DNA of 64,000 nucleotides from Escherichia phage FL04. The position numbers were made by a program, and so were the translations under genes. The notes beneath the pieces are model-generated. The model made no database searches and was not told the origin of the DNA. It saw only the letters and a program-made list of their open reading frames with translations. The stretch lies in the sequence record PP358550. One strand, 5' to 3'. This document shows, piece after piece, positions 17,666 to 47,296 of this stretch; within the stretch, counting starts at the first letter, position 1; every line of letters begins with the position of its first letter.

Positions 17666-17872
17666 ATGAAAGTACGTTGCATTGAAACCGATCACATCAA
17701 TTATAGCTTTGGTGTCGGGTGTGATTATGATGTTGATGTATTCACGGACAATAGCGGAAACACATTTGATGTAGTTCATGGTGACTATATTTGGTTTTAC
17801 TTTGACAAACAACAACTTACTGCAACCAAACGAAACGGTGATCCGGTAGCAAAATTTGAAATAATCGAATAA
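17666..17872 (+). CDS. hypothetical small protein (68 aa); paralog family with 47020 and frameshifted 44474
   Basis: AAGGAGA-N7-ATG; MKVRC...FGVG..YD... KFEIIE pattern shared with 47020..47238. Confidence 0.6.
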   Translation: MKVRCIETDHINYSFGVGCDYDVDVFTDNSGNTFDVVHGDYIWFYFDKQQLTATKRNGDPVAKFEIIE

Positions 17873-17878
17873 AATCTA

Positions 17879-17913
17879 TTGACACTGAATAATGGGAGTA
17901 GTAATATACTCCC
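17879..17913 (+). promoter_or_regulatory. PeSL-type early promoter (hairpin GGGAGTA-N6-TACTCCC overlapping -10)
   Basis: TTGACA 17879-17884, 17-nt spacer, TAATAT 17902-17907 inside hairpin. Confidence 0.65.
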
Positions 17914-17938
17914 ATTCCAAACAAAAGGAGAATCAAAG

Positions 17939-18215: not shown

Positions 18216-18386
18216 ATGAACTGGTATAAAATTTGGAAAAATCAGGTGGAGGCTTATCTAGGGTATAAGCCCACCGACAAAGAATTACTTGATGCAATGT
18301 ATGAAGACGGACTAAATCCGAAAGTAGCCGCGCAAGAATACGCGGAATGGGTGAAGGTCGAAGATAACCTAAAGAGGAAACTATGA
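18216..18386 (+). CDS. hypothetical small protein (56 aa)
   Basis: ATG 18216 just after upstream stop. Confidence 0.45.
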   Translation: MNWYKIWKNQVEAYLGYKPTDKELLDAMYEDGLNPKVAAQEYAEWVKVEDNLKRKL

Positions 18387-18607
18387 AGAAAATGATTGCG
18401 ATTGCTTTGTTGGCGAGCGCATGTACTGTAAATGCTAACACCGCAGCGATGGTCGCGGCTGTAACTGCCGCAAATGCTTCCGTTATGGCATCGCAAGAGG
18501 CAGCACGCCAGCAAGCACAACAAGAAGCCAAGCGAAAAGCACATGAGGCGACGAAAAATTTTCACGAAAATAACAAAAAACTAGTTGACGCCAAAGGTCA
18601 TCGGTAG
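18383..18607 (+). CDS. hypothetical secreted protein (74 aa)
   Basis: Signal-peptide-like N-terminus MKKMIAIALLASACTVNA; Ala/Gln-rich mature part. Confidence 0.55.
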   Translation: MKKMIAIALLASACTVNANTAAMVAAVTAANASVMASQEAARQQAQQEAKRKAHEATKNFHENNKKLVDAKGHR

Positions 18608-35603: not shown

Positions 35604-36128
35604 ATGACTGAACAGAAAAAAGAAAAAGTAGTATTTGACGAAAATGTACACGGAAATACCCTGGCACAACTGATTAAAGAAGCCAGCGATCAGAAAACCA
35701 TTCAAGAAGCATACGGCGATAAGATCAAAGAGATCAAACAGCGTGCTAAAGAAGAATTAGGCGTAGACGGTAAAATGTGGGGCATTCTGTTTAAACTGTG
35801 TATCACCAGCAACAGCGCGAAACCTTCGAAGCAGAACGCGATGAAGCGGCAGAACTCTATGATCGGGTGTTCAATGCTTAATGAACATGCGGTAAAAGCC
35901 GCGAATAAAACAGCAAACGGTCTTGCAATCGAAAAACTGGTTGTTGAAGAGGGATTGACTTATCTTGAAGCGACCACTCAGTTTGTAGAGGAAAACTCTA
36001 TCGAATATGGTCACTATCAGAAATATATTCCGGTGTCCATTATTGACAAGATCACACAAGAATGTATAGTAAATAGAACGCTCAGGAAGGGAGTGATCGA
36101 CGAACCGACCAACACTCTCGATATTTAA
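35604..36128 (+). CDS. hypothetical protein (174 aa); positional equivalent of T4 gene 33
   Basis: Located between rnh-proximal gene and gp59; C-terminus ...TNTLDI; function not verifiable from sequence. Confidence 0.5.
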   Translation: MTEQKKEKVVFDENVHGNTLAQLIKEASDQKTIQEAYGDKIKEIKQRAKEELGVDGKMWGILFKLCITSNSAKPSKQNAMKRQNSMIGCSMLNEHAVKAANKTANGLAIEKLVVEEGLTYLEATTQFVEENSIEYGHYQKYIPVSIIDKITQECIVNRTLRKGVIDEPTNTLDI

Positions 36129-42161: not shown

Positions 42162-44405
42162 ATGATTAAAAATGTTGTTAAGTCTTCCGGTCTGACTGTT
42201 CCGTTTGAAAAAGAAAAAGTAATGAAAATTCTGGAAGCGGCAGCCGAAGGTCATAACGTTGATCCATATGAATTGTTTGATATGGTTGAACCACTTCTGA
42301 CAGAAGGTATGTCTACCAATGATATCCAGAAAGTATTGATTAAGGTCGCAGCAGATAACATTACTGTCGAAACACCCGATTATCAATATGTAGCAAGTAA
42401 CCTTGCAATGTTCGCGCTTCGCAAATCAGTATACGGTCAATTCCAACCTATTGATTTTTATAGCCATATTGAGCGTAATATTGCAACCGGAAAATATGAT
42501 CGCGAAATTCTGCAAAAGTATTCCCGTGAAGAAGTGGAATATCTGGAGAAATTCATCGACCATAAACTTGATTTTAAAATGACCTATGCTGGTGCGATGC
42601 AGTTAAAAGAGAAATATCTTGTTCAGGATCGCAGCACTAAGAAAATCATCGAAACACCGCAATTTGCGTATATGCTGATCGGTATGTGCTTGCATCAAGA
42701 AGAGACCGAAAATCGACTTGAACATGTGATTGATTTTTATAATGCGGTTGCGAATAAGCAAATCTCTCTGCCTACTCCGATTATGGCAGGTGTGCGTACC
42801 CCAACACGCCAATTTAGTTCGTGTGTGGTGATCGAAAGTGATGACTCATTGCAGGGTATTAATGAAACCGCAAATGCAATCATTAAGTATATTAGCAAGC
42901 GTGCTGGTATCGGTATCAACGCTGGCATGATTCGCGCGGAAGGATCTAAGATCGGGCATGGTGAAGTTCGTCATACTGGCGTTATCCCATTCTGGAAACA
43001 TTTTCAGACTGCCGTTAAGTCATGCTCACAAGGCGGTATTCGTGGCGGGGCAGCGACACTCTATTACCCAATGTGGCATTTAGAGTTTGAAAGTCTGATT
43101 GTGTTAAAGAACAATAAGGGCGTGGAAGATAACCGCATTCGCCATCTTGACTACGGCGTACAGATTAATAACCTGATGGTAGAGCGATTCCTTAAACGGG
43201 ATTACATTACTCTGTTTAGTCCAGATGTTGCGGGTGGCTTGTTGTGGGATCTATACTTCCGAGATGAGGAAGGTTTCCGCCAACTTTACGAAAAACTGGA
43301 AAAAGATCCGAGTGTTCGTAAAACTCGTGTTAAAGCCGAAGACCTGTTTTTAGCGGTGGCAATTGAACGTTTTAACACTGGTCGAATCTACCCAACGTTC
43401 ACAGACAACATGAACAATCACGGGGCGTTTATTCGTAATGTAGCACCGATTAAACAATCTAACCTGTGTTGTGAAATTGCACTGCCTACTAAACCGATGG
43501 GTCGTGATGATTCAGAAATTAGCCTATGTACTTTGGCAGCATATGTTTTAGGTAATTTCGATATCGAAAATATGGAAGAAGTAGAACGCATTGCTATGGT
43601 TATGGTGCGTGCACTTGACAACCTGTTAGATTATCAGGATTATCCTGTAGAACAAGCTCTGACAGCCAAAAAACGTCGCTCTCTGGGTGTTGGTGTTACT
43701 AACTTTGCATCATATCTAGCAGATAATTTCTTCACATATGAAGACGCTAACGAGTTTACGCATAAAACGTTTGAACGCTTGCAATATGCTCTGATTAAGG
43801 CTAGTGTGCGACTGGCTAAAGAGAAGGGTGCTTGCGAACTGATGCACGAAACACGCTATGGTCGCGGTGAACTGCCTATCGACTGGTACAAAAAGACAGT
43901 AGATGAACTGGTTGATCCGGTGTATGAGATGGATTGGGAAGAACTGCGCGAAGACCTGAAAAAATATGGCATTCGTAACAGTACACTGTCGGCGCTGATG
44001 CCTTGTGAGTCGTCTTCTCAGGTATCTAACAGCACAAACGGTATTGAACCGCCTCGCGGGATTGTATCGGTTAAAGGATCGAAAGAAGGACAATTTAATC
44101 AGGTTATTCCGAACGTAGAGAATAATGCTGATGTTATTGACCTGCTTTGGACACTGATCAAGAAAGGTAACAAGCCTTATCTGACACTGGCAGCAATCAT
44201 GCAGAAGTTTGTGGATCAGGCGATTAGTTCCAATACATCCTATGATCCAAGCACTTATAAGACTGGTAAAGTCGATATTGCTGATGTATTAGATGATATG
44301 TTGTTTGCTCAATATTACGGTCTGAAAACCCTGTATTATGCGAACGTTCGCGACGGTGCAGATGGTACGGAAGACGCTAGCGAGTGCTCATCTTGCAAGC
44401 TGTAA
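42162..44405 (+). CDS. nrdA: ribonucleotide reductase large subunit (class Ia)
   Basis: 747 aa; N-terminal ATP-cone region, catalytic region with SNLCCEI, C-terminal CSSCKL redox pair. Confidence 0.92.
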   Translation: MIKNVVKSSGLTVPFEKEKVMKILEAAAEGHNVDPYELFDMVEPLLTEGMSTNDIQKVLIKVAADNITVETPDYQYVASNLAMFALRKSVYGQFQPIDFYSHIERNIATGKYDREILQKYSREEVEYLEKFIDHKLDFKMTYAGAMQLKEKYLVQDRSTKKIIETPQFAYMLIGMCLHQEETENRLEHVIDFYNAVANKQISLPTPIMAGVRTPTRQFSSCVVIESDDSLQGINETANAIIKYISKRAGIGINAGMIRAEGSKIGHGEVRHTGVIPFWKHFQTAVKSCSQGGIRGGAATLYYPMWHLEFESLIVLKNNKGVEDNRIRHLDYGVQINNLMVERFLKRDYITLFSPDVAGGLLWDLYFRDEEGFRQLYEKLEKDPSVRKTRVKAEDLFLAVAIERFNTGRIYPTFTDNMNNHGAFIRNVAPIKQSNLCCEIALPTKPMGRDDSEISLCTLAAYVLGNFDIENMEEVERIAMVMVRALDNLLDYQDYPVEQALTAKKRRSLGVGVTNFASYLADNFFTYEDANEFTHKTFERLQYALIKASVRLAKEKGACELMHETRYGRGELPIDWYKKTVDELVDPVYEMDWEELREDLKKYGIRNSTLSALMPCESSSQVSNSTNGIEPPRGIVSVKGSKEGQFNQVIPNVENNADVIDLLWTLIKKGNKPYLTLAAIMQKFVDQAISSNTSYDPSTYKTGKVDIADVLDDMLFAQYYGLKTLYYANVRDGADGTEDASECSSCKL

Positions 44406-44413
44406 AATAAGTG

Positions 44414-44442
44414 TTGACGCGGGGAGAAATCCCCGCTATAAT
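44414..44442 (+). promoter_or_regulatory. PeSL-type early promoter with hairpin spacer
   Basis: TTGACG-GCGGGGA-GAAA-TCCCCGC-TATAAT. Confidence 0.65.
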
Positions 44443-44473
44443 ACAACCATCAAAAACAAGTGAGGATTTTATT

Positions 44474-44642
44474 ATGACCAAATTAAAATGTGTTGCTGTA
44501 GATTTTTGAACTAGCTGATAGCTTTGTTGTTGGTGATGAATATGATGCTCGACATGATGGGACTTGCTACTACGTCGAGGATGAATATGGTGTAGAATGG
44601 GCGATTCTTCCTGATGATAAATGTTTTGAGGTTGTCGGATAA
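44474..44642 (+). pseudogene. small ORF disrupted by +1 frameshift at a T5 run (or programmed frameshift / sequence error)
   Basis: MTKLKCVAVDF-stop at 44507; continuing in +1 frame from 44508 gives ELADSFVVGDEYDARHDGTCYYVEDEYGVEWAILPDDKCFEVVG; joined product resembles paralogs at 17666 and 47020. Confidence 0.45.
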
Positions 44643-44815
44643 TGGCTACTGTATGGTTATTGATTGCAATCAGCAATTCAATGTATAATTACGGAAATAT
44701 GTCAAGCATTGAATTTGCAACAAAGCAGGATTGCGTTAAAGCTCGCGAGATTATCCGCGAAGACAATAAACGATTTATGAATCTATATTGCGTTGAAAAA
44801 CAAAAGGTGAACTAA
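44642..44815 (+). CDS. hypothetical small protein (57 aa), tandem paralog A
   Basis: MATVWLLIAISNS... ; ATG overlaps upstream stop; not in track. Confidence 0.45.
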   Translation: MATVWLLIAISNSMYNYGNMSSIEFATKQDCVKAREIIREDNKRFMNLYCVEKQKVN

Positions 44816-44982
44816 TGGCTACATTATGGTTATTGCTTTCCGTTAGCGTAGGAGTATATAATAAAGGAACTGTTACCAGCGTAGAGTTTTCATCATATCA
44901 AAATTGTTTTGAAGCTGTGCAGGAATTGCAGCAGGATAGCGAAATAAACAGAAATACTAAGTTCTTTTGTGTTAAAAAGTGA
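44815..44982 (+). CDS. hypothetical small protein (55 aa), tandem paralog B
   Basis: MATLWLLLSVSVG... similar to preceding ORF throughout; not in track. Confidence 0.45.
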   Translation: MATLWLLLSVSVGVYNKGTVTSVEFSSYQNCFEAVQELQQDSEINRNTKFFCVKK

Positions 44983-44997
44983 TAGTGAGGTGAATTA

Positions 44998-46158
44998 ATG
45001 AGCGTATTTAACCGCGAACATGTTGATATTATGAACGAACCGATGTTTCTGGGTAGTGGGTTGGGTATCGCTCGCTATGATATTCAGCGTCATCAAGTAT
45101 TTGAAGAACTGATCGAAAAGCAATTGTCATTTTTCTGGCGTCCAGAAGAAATTTCACTTGCAACCGACCGCATTCAATATCTTAATATGGGTGACGTTGA
45201 AAAGCGTTTCTTTACTGAAAACTTGAAGTATCAGACATTACTTGATTCTATTCAAGGTCGCGCACCGTCCGCAGCATTTGGTCCAATTGTATCTGATCCA
45301 ACTCTCGATACATGGTTGCAAACATGGACATTCAGCGAAACGATTCATAGCCGAAGCTATACACACATTATGCGTAACTGTTTCATTGATCCGGCTAGTG
45401 AGTTCGACCAGATCATCGATAACCCTGCTATCATGAAGCGAGCGGAATCTATCGGGAAATATTATGATGATGTTCTTTATTGGATTCGTAAGTATGAGAA
45501 TGCAAAAGAAGATCTCCGCTATTGGGAAGAACGAGACGACCAGACAGCATTAGATGATGCAAGAAGATTTTTTGAAGATACAAAACGAGATCTGATGGCT
45601 TCGATTTATCTGTGTGCACACTGCGTAAATGCACTGGAAGCAATCCGTTTTTATGTGTCCTTTGCATGTACTTTCAGCTTTGCCGAACGTGGTTTACTGG
45701 AAGGTAACGCGAAGATCATGAAATTTATTGCGCGTGATGAACAACTTCACTTAAAAGGAACACAATACATTATTCGTCAATGGCAAACGGGGGTTGATGG
45801 TGATGAGTGGAAACAGATTGCGGAAGAACTTGAAGGCGAAGCAACGAAAATCTTTCTGGATGTTGTCGAGCAAGAAAAAGAATGGGTAGACCACCTATTC
45901 GCAATGGGGGCAATTCCTAACCTGTCACCGGAAATTCTGAAAACCTATGTAGAATACCTGGCAGATTCCCGTATGCGTGCTGCCGGACTGAAAAGCCCGT
46001 TTAGTGTTCGTCGTCATCCGTTACCGTGGATGCGTAAATGGTTGAACTCTGACGAAGTACAGAATGCAGCGCAGGAAGTAGAGATTATGTATCTGGTATC
46101 TCAGGTTAATACCGATTTAACAGATGACGACTACAACCGATTCGGGAAATATCTATGA
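44998..46158 (+). CDS. nrdB: ribonucleotide reductase small subunit (class Ia), uninterrupted
   Basis: 386 aa; di-iron ligand region (SETIHSRSYTHI, EAIRFYVSFA, LHLKGTQYI); no intron-like interruption. Confidence 0.92.
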   Translation: MSVFNREHVDIMNEPMFLGSGLGIARYDIQRHQVFEELIEKQLSFFWRPEEISLATDRIQYLNMGDVEKRFFTENLKYQTLLDSIQGRAPSAAFGPIVSDPTLDTWLQTWTFSETIHSRSYTHIMRNCFIDPASEFDQIIDNPAIMKRAESIGKYYDDVLYWIRKYENAKEDLRYWEERDDQTALDDARRFFEDTKRDLMASIYLCAHCVNALEAIRFYVSFACTFSFAERGLLEGNAKIMKFIARDEQLHLKGTQYIIRQWQTGVDGDEWKQIAEELEGEATKIFLDVVEQEKEWVDHLFAMGAIPNLSPEILKTYVEYLADSRMRAAGLKSPFSVRRHPLPWMRKWLNSDEVQNAAQEVEIMYLVSQVNTDLTDDDYNRFGKYL

Positions 46159-46731: not shown

Positions 46732-46950
46732 ATGGAAACAGAAGAACAAGTCATTGCACATTTTCATCGTAAAAAGATGAAACTTAGAATTGAAAAGCAG
46801 TACATCAATCACTACATTGACCGAGTTCACTTAACAAGTACACCTTACCTATTCCGGTTGATAAACCCTAGAAAACGGTGGGAGAAGTTGGATAGAAACA
46901 CAAAAATAATTGATAAGCTCACCCAGTGGTGGAATGAATACAACAAGTAA
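46732..46950 (+). CDS. hypothetical protein (72 aa)
   Basis: GGAGGA RBS. Confidence 0.55.
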   Translation: METEEQVIAHFHRKKMKLRIEKQYINHYIDRVHLTSTPYLFRLINPRKRWEKLDRNTKIIDKLTQWWNEYNK

Positions 46951-46957
46951 AAAGTAG

Positions 46958-46992
46958 TTGACACTGAATAACGGGGGTAGTAAGATACTCCC
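46958..46992 (+). promoter_or_regulatory. PeSL-type early promoter
   Basis: TTGACA-17-TAAGAT with GGGGGTA/TACTCCC hairpin. Confidence 0.65.
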
Positions 46993-47019
46993 ATCGAAAC
47001 GAAACAAAGGAGAATCAAA

Positions 47020-47238
47020 ATGAAATTTACTTGCACCGACTCTATCAGCAAACACTTTGTAGTAGGCGAAGTATACGAATCTACTACCATTCGCCAGCGT
47101 GACCTGATGGGTCGCCTTTACAATCAGCCAGTATTCATTATTGGCGAAGAATTGTTCTACATTGAAAACCGTCCGTGGGTTGCTTTCAATAAACGAGGAC
47201 GCAAGGTAGCAAAATTCGAACTTGTCATTAAAAAGTAG
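47020..47238 (+). CDS. hypothetical small protein (72 aa), paralog of 17666..17872
   Basis: MKFTC...FVVGEVYE...VAKFELVIKK. Confidence 0.6.
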   Translation: MKFTCTDSISKHFVVGEVYESTTIRQRDLMGRLYNQPVFIIGEELFYIENRPWVAFNKRGRKVAKFELVIKK

Positions 47239-47273
47239 TTGACAGCATGAAACGGGGGTAGTAATATACCCCC
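47239..47273 (+). promoter_or_regulatory. PeSL-type early promoter
   Basis: TTGACA-17-TAATAT with GGGGGTA/TACCCCC hairpin. Confidence 0.65.
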
Positions 47274-47296
47274 ATCGAAACGAAATACACTTTAAG

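What the first reader, a model, noticed from the sequence alone, without database searches (positions are those of the whole stretch)
44474..44642. Small cassette ORF interrupted by a +1 frameshift at a T5 homopolymer
The reading frame opened by ATG 44474 (MTKLKCVAVDF) hits TGA at 44507 inside a TTTTT run; the +1 frame continues for 44 more codons to 44642. The joined product resembles the intact paralogs at 17666 and 47020 (MK.(K/R)C...VG(D/E)(E/V)Y...). This is either a recent pseudogenisation, a sequencing or assembly indel, or a programmed frameshift.
Basis: seen in the sequence. Interest (0 to 1): 0.5.

Follow-up and report, generated by a model that had tools for sequence, protein, structure and literature searches.

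The report
Broken small phage gene, one extra T
A 55-codon early gene of unknown function in an RB49-like (T4-type) coliphage is broken here by one extra T in a TTTT run; this is an ordinary recent gene inactivation, although the same small gene has been knocked out at least nine separate times in related phages.

Summary
ATG 44474 opens 11 codons that stop at TGA 44507-44509 inside T5 (44503-44507), and the +1 frame then runs 44 codons to TAA 44640-44642. The window is a Krischvirus (RB49-like). The ORF is the ortholog of RB49 ORF233 (NP_891804, phrog_16302), which lies between nrdA and nrdB behind a PeSL-type early promoter. Most relatives have T4 and one intact 55-codon ORF, so the window carries a 1-nt insertion.

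The same T5 allele occurs in two other distinct genomes, FL38 and kaaroe (the latter Illumina, high coverage). A private assembly error is therefore unlikely.

It is not a programmed frameshift. The configuration is not conserved, there is no stimulatory SD-like element or RNA structure, and eight other independent lesions (frameshifts and nonsense mutations) break the same gene elsewhere. Intact copies show purifying selection (pN/pS about 0.2). Two comparable small ORFs show almost no broken variants.

The sequence UUU_UGA is a classic "shifty stop". A low percentage of +1 slippage would recreate the exact wild-type protein, but this is inferred, not shown.

The claimed paralogy with the ORFs at 17666 and 47020 is not supported by sequence; the proteins share at most a broad small beta-barrel fold class.

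Verdict: recent pseudogenisation, low interest. Recurrent loss of this gene is a modest lead.

The parts
44414..44442 (+). PeSL-type early promoter. The -35 box TTGACG is at 44414-44419 and the -10 box TATAAT at 44437-44442, with a 17-nt spacer. A 7-bp G/C hairpin, GCGGGGA-GAAA-TCCCCGC (44419-44436), lies inside the spacer, immediately after the nrdA stop (44403-44405).
   Evidence: The promoter scan gives 11 of 12 matches. The hairpin was read from the sequence. The element is invariant in all 13 aligned phages. The architecture matches the PeSL description in PMC2839356. A promoter is annotated at the same place in GEC-3S.
44462..44466 (+). Shine-Dalgarno sequence GAGGA, 7 nt upstream of ATG 44474.
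   Evidence: Read from the sequence; conserved in the alignment.
44474..44509 (+). 5' remnant of the ORF233 ortholog: 11 codons (MTKLKCVAVDF) followed by a premature TGA.
44503..44507 (+). T5 run. This is the ancestral T4 run plus one inserted T, which is the lesion. On the mRNA it reads GAU UUU UGA A, a potential 'shifty stop'.
   Evidence: The alignments show T4 in 10 of 13 and 5 of 6 relatives, and the anchored comparison shows the same. All four metagenomic and IMG/VR copies have T4.
44508..44642 (+). 3' remnant of the ORF233 ortholog in the +1 frame: 44 codons plus TAA. This frame contains no ATG, GTG or TTG, so it cannot be translated on its own.
   Evidence: Translation. No ORF ending at 44642 is listed. 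The joined product is 100% identical to RB49 NP_891804.
44642..44982 (+). Two intact tandem paralogous small ORFs (44642-44815 and 44815-44982), orthologs of RB49 ORF232 and ORF231 (phrog_5579). They lie in the same early transcription unit upstream of nrdB (44998-46158). The first start codon overlaps the stop codon of the broken gene.

Best explanation
This is a recent loss-of-function allele (a pseudogene) of a small, genus-restricted early gene: the Krischvirus ortholog of RB49 ORF233, a 55-aa predicted SH3-like beta-barrel protein of unknown function. Replication slippage added one T to a TTTT run at codons 11/12. Translation from ATG 44474 therefore stops after 11 residues, and the remaining 44 codons lie in the +1 frame without a start codon of their own. 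The allele is real and circulates among related phages. It is one of at least nine independent knock-outs of this gene, which shows that the gene is dispensable for growth and is repeatedly lost, although it is under purifying selection where intact. Shown here: the ancestral state, the lesion, its presence in other genomes, the recurrent lesions, and the selection signature. Inferred: the slippage origin; that the 11-aa peptide is inert; and that a small fraction of ribosomes (probably a few per cent or less) slip +1 at UUU_UGA and make the exact wild-type protein, so the allele may be a leaky hypomorph rather than a null.
For: 1. Identity of the locus. The window is a Krischvirus, and the locus lies between nrdA and nrdB as in RB49.
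2. Ancestral state. T4 and an intact 168-nt ORF are found in RB49, Phi1, G2494, Whisky, UPWr_E1, JK32, TB34 and others. At least 44 of 52 distinct phage records appear intact: 21 give a 100%-identical, single-piece tblastn hit, and the rest were judged from tblastn coverage and annotation, which could hide a nonsense codon. All four metagenome/IMG-VR copies are intact.
3. The T5 allele is shared. Only FL38 and kaaroe carry it. The window is distinct from every record (best 97% identity over 24 kb). Kaaroe comes from Illumina data at high coverage.
4. Assembly quality. Against about 50 kb of RB49, the only uncompensated non-3n indels in the window that fall inside conserved genes are this one and one non-homopolymer TG insertion. 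The assembly is therefore not riddled with homopolymer errors.
5. Eight further independent lesions:
   - deletion of CT at codon 31 (FL37, FL20)
   - +T at codon 39/40 (AV108)
   - deletion of A at codon 4/5 (pEJ01)
   - GAG>TAG at codon 12 (ELT3, G37-3)
   - TGC>TGA at codon 31 (three assemblies)
   - deletion of A at codon 30
   - +AT at codon 24
   - deletion of T at codon 50/51
.
6. Controls. The neighbouring ORF232 and the ORF at 47020 give 3 full-length clusters plus 1 short one, and 1 full-length cluster, respectively, in the same database. ORF233 gives 5 intact and 6 truncated or frameshifted clusters (Fisher p 2e-4 on member counts, not corrected for relatedness).
7. It is a real gene. 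There are 12 synonymous and 10 non-synonymous variants, giving pN/pS 0.21. The AF2 model is confident (pLDDT 89).
8. No independent translation of the 3' part. The +1 frame has no start codon.
Against: The reads for the window are not available, so a consensus error at the T run in this particular assembly cannot be formally excluded. The window carries a second private frameshift (TG insertion in dsbA), which could mean either a mutation-tolerant isolate or imperfect polishing. No expression data exist for the gene in any phage. The number of intact records is a lower-confidence count, because about 21 records were judged intact only from tblastn and annotation. Leaky +1 decoding is untested, and no efficiency for UUU_UGA was found in the papers read.
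Confidence: 0.85

Rival explanations
1. Sequencing or assembly artefact: the true genome has T4, and the extra T is a homopolymer miscall in the consensus.
For: The lesion lies in a homopolymer, which is the commonest site of consensus errors. The window has another private frameshift, in dsbA.
Against: The identical allele is present in two other independently sequenced and clearly different genomes (97% identity over 24 kb). One of them comes from high-coverage Illumina data. A run of five T is short for systematic errors. Other homopolymer differences from RB49 and kaaroe fall in intergenic DNA.
Confidence: 0.07
2. Programmed +1 ribosomal frameshift of the RF2 'shifty stop' type: the phage makes the full protein by regulated slippage of tRNA-Phe from UUU to the overlapping UUU when UGA is in the A site.
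For: The sequence GAU UUU UGA A allows perfect re-pairing in +1 next to a UGA. It would yield exactly the ancestral protein. Shifty stops are known to be shift-prone, and K-12 RF2 terminates poorly at UGA (PMC3082878).
Against: The configuration is not conserved: 3 genomes have it, against at least 44 records that appear to have a single ORF. There is no SD-like stimulator upstream. The downstream RNA folds no better than shuffled sequence (z 0.32), and there is no Rfam match. Other lineages break the same gene with nonsense codons and 2-nt indels that no slippage at this site could rescue. Even CCC_UGA, described as especially shift-prone, generally gives no more than 2% without stimulators.
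Confidence: 0.03
3. Adaptive knock-out: the ORF233 protein is costly or is sensed by some hosts (for example as a trigger of an abortive-infection system). Loss-of-function alleles, including T5, are then positively selected on those hosts, and UUU_UGA slippage leaves a trace of product.
For: Nine independent lesions occur in a 165-nt gene that is otherwise under purifying selection. Control ORFs are almost never broken. Five of 7 phages isolated on MG1655 carry a broken copy, against 3 of 45 for other hosts (Fisher p 4e-4, uncorrected for shared ancestry and laboratory or country).
Against: The alleles are shared between isolates, so the number of independent events is small. Host is confounded with geography, since most broken isolates are Danish. 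Intact copies are found in phages grown on K-12 (kvi, FL15, JSE, Phi1, JK32). Nothing is known about the protein's function. Simple dispensability with mildly deleterious, short-lived null alleles explains the same data.
Confidence: 0.12

Closest known systems
RB49 ORF233 (RB49p233, NP_891804.1) and its Krischvirus orthologs; PHROG phrog_16302
   Same: Same locus between nrdA and nrdB and the same PeSL promoter. The joined product is 100% identical to the RB49 protein.
   Different: The window copy has one extra T and is split into an 11-codon piece and a 44-codon piece. No function is known for any member of the family.
PeSL + ORFan cassettes of RB49/phi1 (Arbiol et al. 2010, PMC2839356; Comeau et al. 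2014, PMC4122927)
   Same: A strong sigma-70-like early promoter with a G/C hairpin between the -35 and -10 boxes, followed by an SD and the start codon of a small ORFan.
   Different: Only one PeSL was found, upstream. The ORF is followed directly by two more small ORFs and nrdB without a second PeSL, so it is not a PeSL-flanked excisable cassette. The locus lies in the nucleotide-metabolism block.
RF2 (prfB) +1 programmed frameshift / 'shifty stop' sites (Weiss et al. 1987, cited in PMC5009743; Gurvich et al. 2011, PMC3082878)
   Same: A short zero-frame ORF ends at UGA, and the P-site codon can re-pair perfectly in +1, so slippage would restore the full protein.
   Different: There is no upstream SD-like stimulator. 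The base after UGA is A, not C. The configuration is not conserved among orthologs, and there is no regulatory logic. Here the site is an accident of an insertion in a T run.
'Savior' indel with low-level compensatory frameshifting (herpes simplex thymidine kinase G-run mutants; reviewed in PMC5009743)
   Same: A homopolymer indel inactivates a viral gene, while rare ribosomal slippage in the run could still give a trace of wild-type product.
   Different: No selective agent is known here and no product has been measured. The run is only 5 nt long.
Loss-of-function escape mutations in small T4 early genes such as stp (the peptide that activates the host PrrC anticodon nuclease); from my own knowledge, not tested here
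   Same: A small, non-essential early phage gene is recurrently found with null mutations.
   Different: No host system is known that responds to ORF233. The resemblance is only in the pattern of recurrent knock-outs.

Membership tests
Ortholog of RB49 ORF233 / phrog_16302 | Full-length sequence match to the family profile | tested here: met
   The joined product matches phrog_16302 over residues 1-55 of 55, E 9e-42. It is 100% identical to RB49 NP_891804.
Ortholog of RB49 ORF233 / phrog_16302 | Conserved position: first ORF after nrdA, before ORF232, ORF231 and nrdB | tested here: met
   Same gene order in RB49, Phi1, JK32, TB34 and others.
Frameshift pseudogene | Relatives carry an uninterrupted ORF, and the lesion is derived | tested here: met
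   T4 and an intact ORF in the large majority of relatives and in the metagenomic copies.
Frameshift pseudogene | No way to translate the downstream part independently | tested here: met
   No ATG, GTG or TTG in the frame 44508-44642; no ORF ending at 44642 is listed.
Frameshift pseudogene | Relaxed constraint after the lesion | tested here: inconclusive
   The allele is very young. The window copy has no further change. Kaaroe has one extra non-synonymous change, R26Q. This is too few events to judge.
Programmed +1 frameshift (RF2 / shifty-stop type) | P-site codon that can re-pair in +1, next to an in-frame stop | tested here: met
   GAU UUU UGA: UUU at 44504-44506 overlaps UUU at 44505-44507, and UGA is at 44507-44509.
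Programmed +1 frameshift (RF2 / shifty-stop type) | Stimulatory element (upstream SD-like sequence or downstream RNA structure) | tested here: not met
   The upstream sequence GUUGCUGUAGAU has no SD-like motif. The downstream fold has z-score 0.32 against shuffles. No Rfam hit.
Programmed +1 frameshift (RF2 / shifty-stop type) | Conservation of the two-frame arrangement among orthologs | tested here: not met
   Only the window, FL38 and kaaroe have T5. All other records have one frame or a different lesion.
Programmed +1 frameshift (RF2 / shifty-stop type) | Detected trans-frame protein product | not testable with these tools
   Needs a reporter assay, a western blot or mass spectrometry.
PeSL cassette (Arbiol 2010) | Sigma-70-like early promoter with a G/C-rich stem-loop between or overlapping the boxes, then an SD and a start codon | tested here: met
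   TTGACG, 17-nt spacer, TATAAT: 11 of 12 matches. Hairpin at 44419-44436 and SD at 44462-44466. Definition taken from PMC2839356.
PeSL cassette (Arbiol 2010) | ORFan flanked by PeSLs on both sides (excisable module) | tested here: not met
   No second strong promoter-plus-hairpin was found between 44509 and nrdB. The next ORFs abut with overlapping stop and start codons.
Paralog of the window ORFs at 17666 and 47020 | Significant sequence similarity | tested here: not met
   BLASTP E 0.11 and no hit. phmmer E 0.81 and 2.7 among 447 ORFs. Different PHROGs.
Paralog of the window ORFs at 17666 and 47020 | Shared fold | tested here: inconclusive
   Both AF2 models are small all-beta proteins (pLDDT 89 and 92). 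They share a few weak BFVD neighbours, including a DUF7244 protein. The 47020 model does not retrieve the ORF233 ortholog among its top 50 hits.

The most novel reading that the evidence does not exclude
ORF233 is a conditionally harmful early gene, for example one whose product is sensed by a defence system or is costly on some hosts such as K-12 MG1655. Under this reading its repeated knock-outs are adaptive. The T5 allele would be a leaky hypomorph that keeps a trace of wild-type protein through unprogrammed +1 slippage at the UUU_UGA shifty stop, favoured by the weak RF2 of K-12.
Probability: 0.12. Interest if true: 0.55.

Novelty: already known. Interest (0 to 1): 0.2.

Why it matters
For annotation, 44474-44642 should be marked as a frameshifted pseudogene of the RB49 ORF233 family. 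It should not be called as a 32-aa ORF, as in FL38, or left blank, as in kaaroe. It should not be reported as recoding.

More broadly, at least nine independent null alleles occur in a 165-nt gene that otherwise evolves under purifying selection, while comparable small ORFs stay intact. That marks this ORFan as dispensable and possibly under host-dependent selection. Such genes are candidates for host-interaction functions, and isogenic phages would give a cheap experimental test. This is a modest lead, not a discovery.

Tried and rejected
- **Antisense gene.** The 99-aa ORF at 44377-44676 on the minus strand is only 67 aa in RB49 and has no PHROG hit. Rejected.
- **Reinitiation inside the +1 frame.** That frame has no start codon.
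- **Known RNA element or frameshift stimulator.** Rfam returned only a chance snoRNA hit at E 0.44 elsewhere in the region. The fold is no better than shuffled sequence.
- **Transcriptional slippage.** A run of five T is far shorter than the runs known to cause it (established knowledge; examples in PMC5009743). Not pursued.
- **Paralogy with 17666 and 47020.** Tested by BLASTP, phmmer, PHROG and Pfam and not supported. A fold comparison was inconclusive.
- **Function from structure.** The model has an SH3-like small beta-barrel fold. It matches many uncharacterised small phage proteins and N-terminal domains of some phage enzymes. No informative PDB match was found: best E 0.15, to eukaryotic SH3 domains.
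- **T5 allele outside isolates.** Pattern scans of IMG/VR and JGI metagenomes found only four copies, all T4. An exact look-up of the 32-aa GTG-started product found only FL38.
- **Coincident stop positions.** The amber allele of ELT3 and G37-3 also stops at codon 12. With nine lesions over 55 codons, such a coincidence is expected by chance, so it was not interpreted.
- **Host association.** The excess of broken copies among MG1655 isolates is significant on a naive count. It is confounded by shared ancestry and geography, so it is kept only as a lead.

Full report
**What is in the sequence.** ATG 44474 is preceded by a GAGGA Shine-Dalgarno sequence (44462-44466). It opens ATG ACC AAA TTA AAA TGT GTT GCT GTA GAT TTT TGA, so T5 occupies 44503-44507 and TGA 44507-44509. 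From 44508 the +1 frame reads ELADSFVVGDEYDARHDGTCYYVEDEYGVEWAILPDDKCFEVVG and ends at TAA 44640-44642, which overlaps the ATG of the next ORF. That frame has no ATG, GTG or TTG, so it cannot be translated on its own. By composition alone, 44 open codons have a chance of about 0.05. The comparison with relatives is what makes the case.

**Where the window comes from.**
- The region matches 58 phage records of the genus Krischvirus (RB49-like T4-type coliphages) at 90-99.8% identity.
- The ORF lies between nrdA (42162-44405) and nrdB (44998-46158). It is followed by two tandem paralogous small ORFs (44642-44815 and 44815-44982; phrog_5579).
- In RB49 the same position holds an intact 168-nt gene, RB49p233 (NP_891804.1, 55 aa).
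- The joined window product is 100% identical to the RB49 protein and matches phrog_16302 end to end (E 9e-42).
- The window is not any record in the collection. The best match over 24 kb is 97%.

**The lesion.**
- An alignment of 13 phages shows TTTT in RB49, G2494, Phi1, Whisky, UPWr_E1, JK32 and TB34. It shows TTTTT in the window, FL38 and kaaroe.
- A 47-nt query centred on the run cannot seed on a T4 allele. It retrieved only FL38 and kaaroe from 50,697 phage records.
- All four copies found in IMG/VR and JGI metagenomes are T4.
- The window therefore carries a derived 1-nt insertion in a homopolymer.
- Apart from the inserted T, it differs from RB49 within the gene only by one synonymous TAC>TAT, so the allele is young.

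**Is it an artefact?** Three points argue against it.
- The identical allele sits in two other genomes that differ from the window by about 3% over the surrounding 24 kb.
- Kaaroe was assembled from Illumina NextSeq reads with high coverage (PMC7552041).
- I listed every non-3n indel between the window and about 50 kb of RB49 and about 62 kb of kaaroe. Nearly all fall in intergenic DNA next to GTTGAC promoters or are compensated pairs in divergent tail-fibre DNA.
- The uncompensated indels inside genes are this one, a TG insertion in dsbA, and a homopolymer difference from kaaroe that changes the C-terminal tail of the small ORF at 18383-18607.

The assembly is therefore not riddled with homopolymer errors. 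Without the reads I still leave about 7% for an artefact.

**Is it programmed recoding?** The mRNA reads GAU UUU UGA A. Peptidyl-tRNA-Phe on UUU (44504-44506) could re-pair perfectly with UUU (44505-44507) while UGA waits in the A site. This is the 'shifty stop' situation described in PMC3082878, and the product would be exactly the ancestral protein. Every other defining feature of a programmed site fails.
- There is no SD-like stimulator upstream.
- The downstream RNA folds no better than shuffled sequence (z 0.32).
- There is no Rfam match.
- The arrangement is confined to three genomes, whereas at least 44 of 52 distinct records appear to have a single frame.

CCC_UGA, a site described as especially shift-prone, generally gives no more than 2% without stimulators. 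I therefore infer at most low-percentage leakiness here. It may be somewhat higher in K-12, whose RF2 terminates poorly. This step is inference. No value for UUU_UGA was found in the papers read.

**Recurrent loss.** The same gene is broken by eight other independent lesions:
- deletion of CT at codon 31 (FL37, FL20)
- +T at codon 39/40 (AV108)
- deletion of A in an A4 run at codon 4/5 (pEJ01)
- GAG>TAG at codon 12 (ELT3, G37-3)
- TGC>TGA at codon 31 (ERZ10407628, GCA_019973215, SRR15057925)
- deletion of A at codon 30 (SRR15275265)
- +AT at codon 24 (ERZ28586303)
- deletion of T at codon 50/51 (SRR4051861)

At least 8 of 52 distinct phage records are broken. In all of these loci where they are present, the neighbouring ORF232 and ORF231 are intact.

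Searched in the same protein database, ORF233 gives 5 intact and 6 truncated or frameshifted clusters. ORF232 gives 3 intact clusters and one short one. The 47020 ORF gives a single intact cluster of 78 members. On member counts Fisher p is 2e-4, not corrected for relatedness.

Intact copies nevertheless evolve under purifying selection. There are 12 synonymous and 10 non-synonymous variants, giving pN/pS 0.21. Three of the ten non-synonymous variants are a nonsense codon or lie on already broken alleles.

The simplest reading is a real but dispensable gene whose null alleles arise often and survive for a while. A more interesting reading is host-dependent selection for loss. Its only support is an excess of broken copies among phages isolated on MG1655 (5 of 7 against 3 of 45). 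That excess is confounded by shared alleles and by Danish origin. It is also contradicted in part by intact copies in other phages grown on K-12.

**What the gene is.**
- The family is confined to Krischvirus: 11 clusters among 5.8 billion proteins, all at least 85% identical.
- It has no Pfam assignment above threshold. The best hit is DUF7244 at E 0.023.
- AlphaFold gives a confident five-strand small beta protein (pLDDT 89).
- The model resembles SH3-like barrels (TM about 0.6, no significant PDB hit).
- It also resembles many uncharacterised small phage proteins, including a DUF7244 protein and the N-terminal domains of some phage nucleotide enzymes (TM 0.7-0.84).
- The function remains unknown.

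**Promoter context.** Upstream lies a promoter with 11 of 12 consensus matches (TTGACG, 17-nt spacer, TATAAT; 44414-44442). A GCGGGGA-GAAA-TCCCCGC hairpin sits in its spacer. This is the PeSL architecture described for RB49 and phi1 (PMC2839356). It is invariant across the aligned phages. There is no second PeSL before nrdB, so the ORF is not a PeSL-flanked cassette in the strict sense.

**The paralog claim.** The ORFs at 17666 and 47020 are related to each other (31% identity, E 9e-6). The joined product is not significantly similar to either of them, and it falls in different PHROGs. The predicted structures are both small all-beta proteins with a few weak neighbours in common.

**Verdict.** This is a real, recent, single-base frameshift that inactivates a small accessory gene. 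It is shared with two published genomes, where it went unremarked. It is not recoding and very probably not an artefact. It is ordinary as a phenomenon. The only point of wider interest is that this ORFan is knocked out unusually often.

Noticed in passing
window 35797-35798 (ORF 35604..36128): A 2-nt TG insertion relative to RB49 and kaaroe lies inside dsbA. It shifts the frame so that dsbA (91 aa in RB49) runs into the overlapping gp33-like late-transcription gene (89 aa), giving one 174-aa ORF. No record in the phage collection shares the insertion. It is either a private mutation in a gene that is non-essential in T4, or an assembly error.
   Followed up: partly
window 18559 (ORF 18383..18607): A T4 versus T3 homopolymer difference from kaaroe changes the C-terminal tail of a small signal-peptide-like ORF. 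It is 74 aa in the window and 66 aa in kaaroe. Which state is ancestral was not determined.
   Followed up: partly
window 44642-44982; loci L013, L014, L015, L005: The two ORFs after the broken gene are tandem paralogs (phrog_5579). FL20 and G37-3 keep only one copy. AV108, G2494 and G37-3 carry homing or HNH endonuclease genes between nrdA and nrdB. The nrdA-nrdB interval is therefore a hotspot of rearrangement in this genus.
   Followed up: no
locus L016 (GEC-3S) 301-489: The GEC-3S ortholog of the gene carries an in-frame 21-nt tandem duplication (7 aa, DVYDARR/DEYDARH), giving a 62-aa protein.
   Followed up: no
window 17860-17915, 46950-47000, 47235-47290: The ORFs at 17666 and 47020 are mutually related (E 9e-6). 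Each is bracketed by PeSLs of a second type, TTGACA followed by a GGGAGTAGTAATATACTCCC-like hairpin that contains the -10 box. These are true PeSL-flanked cassettes, unlike the ORF in question.
   Followed up: partly
window 44411-44509: FL38 annotates a 32-aa GTG-started ORF here. Its start codon lies upstream of the -35 box of the gene's own promoter, so it is most likely a gene-caller artefact created by the frameshift.
   Followed up: yes
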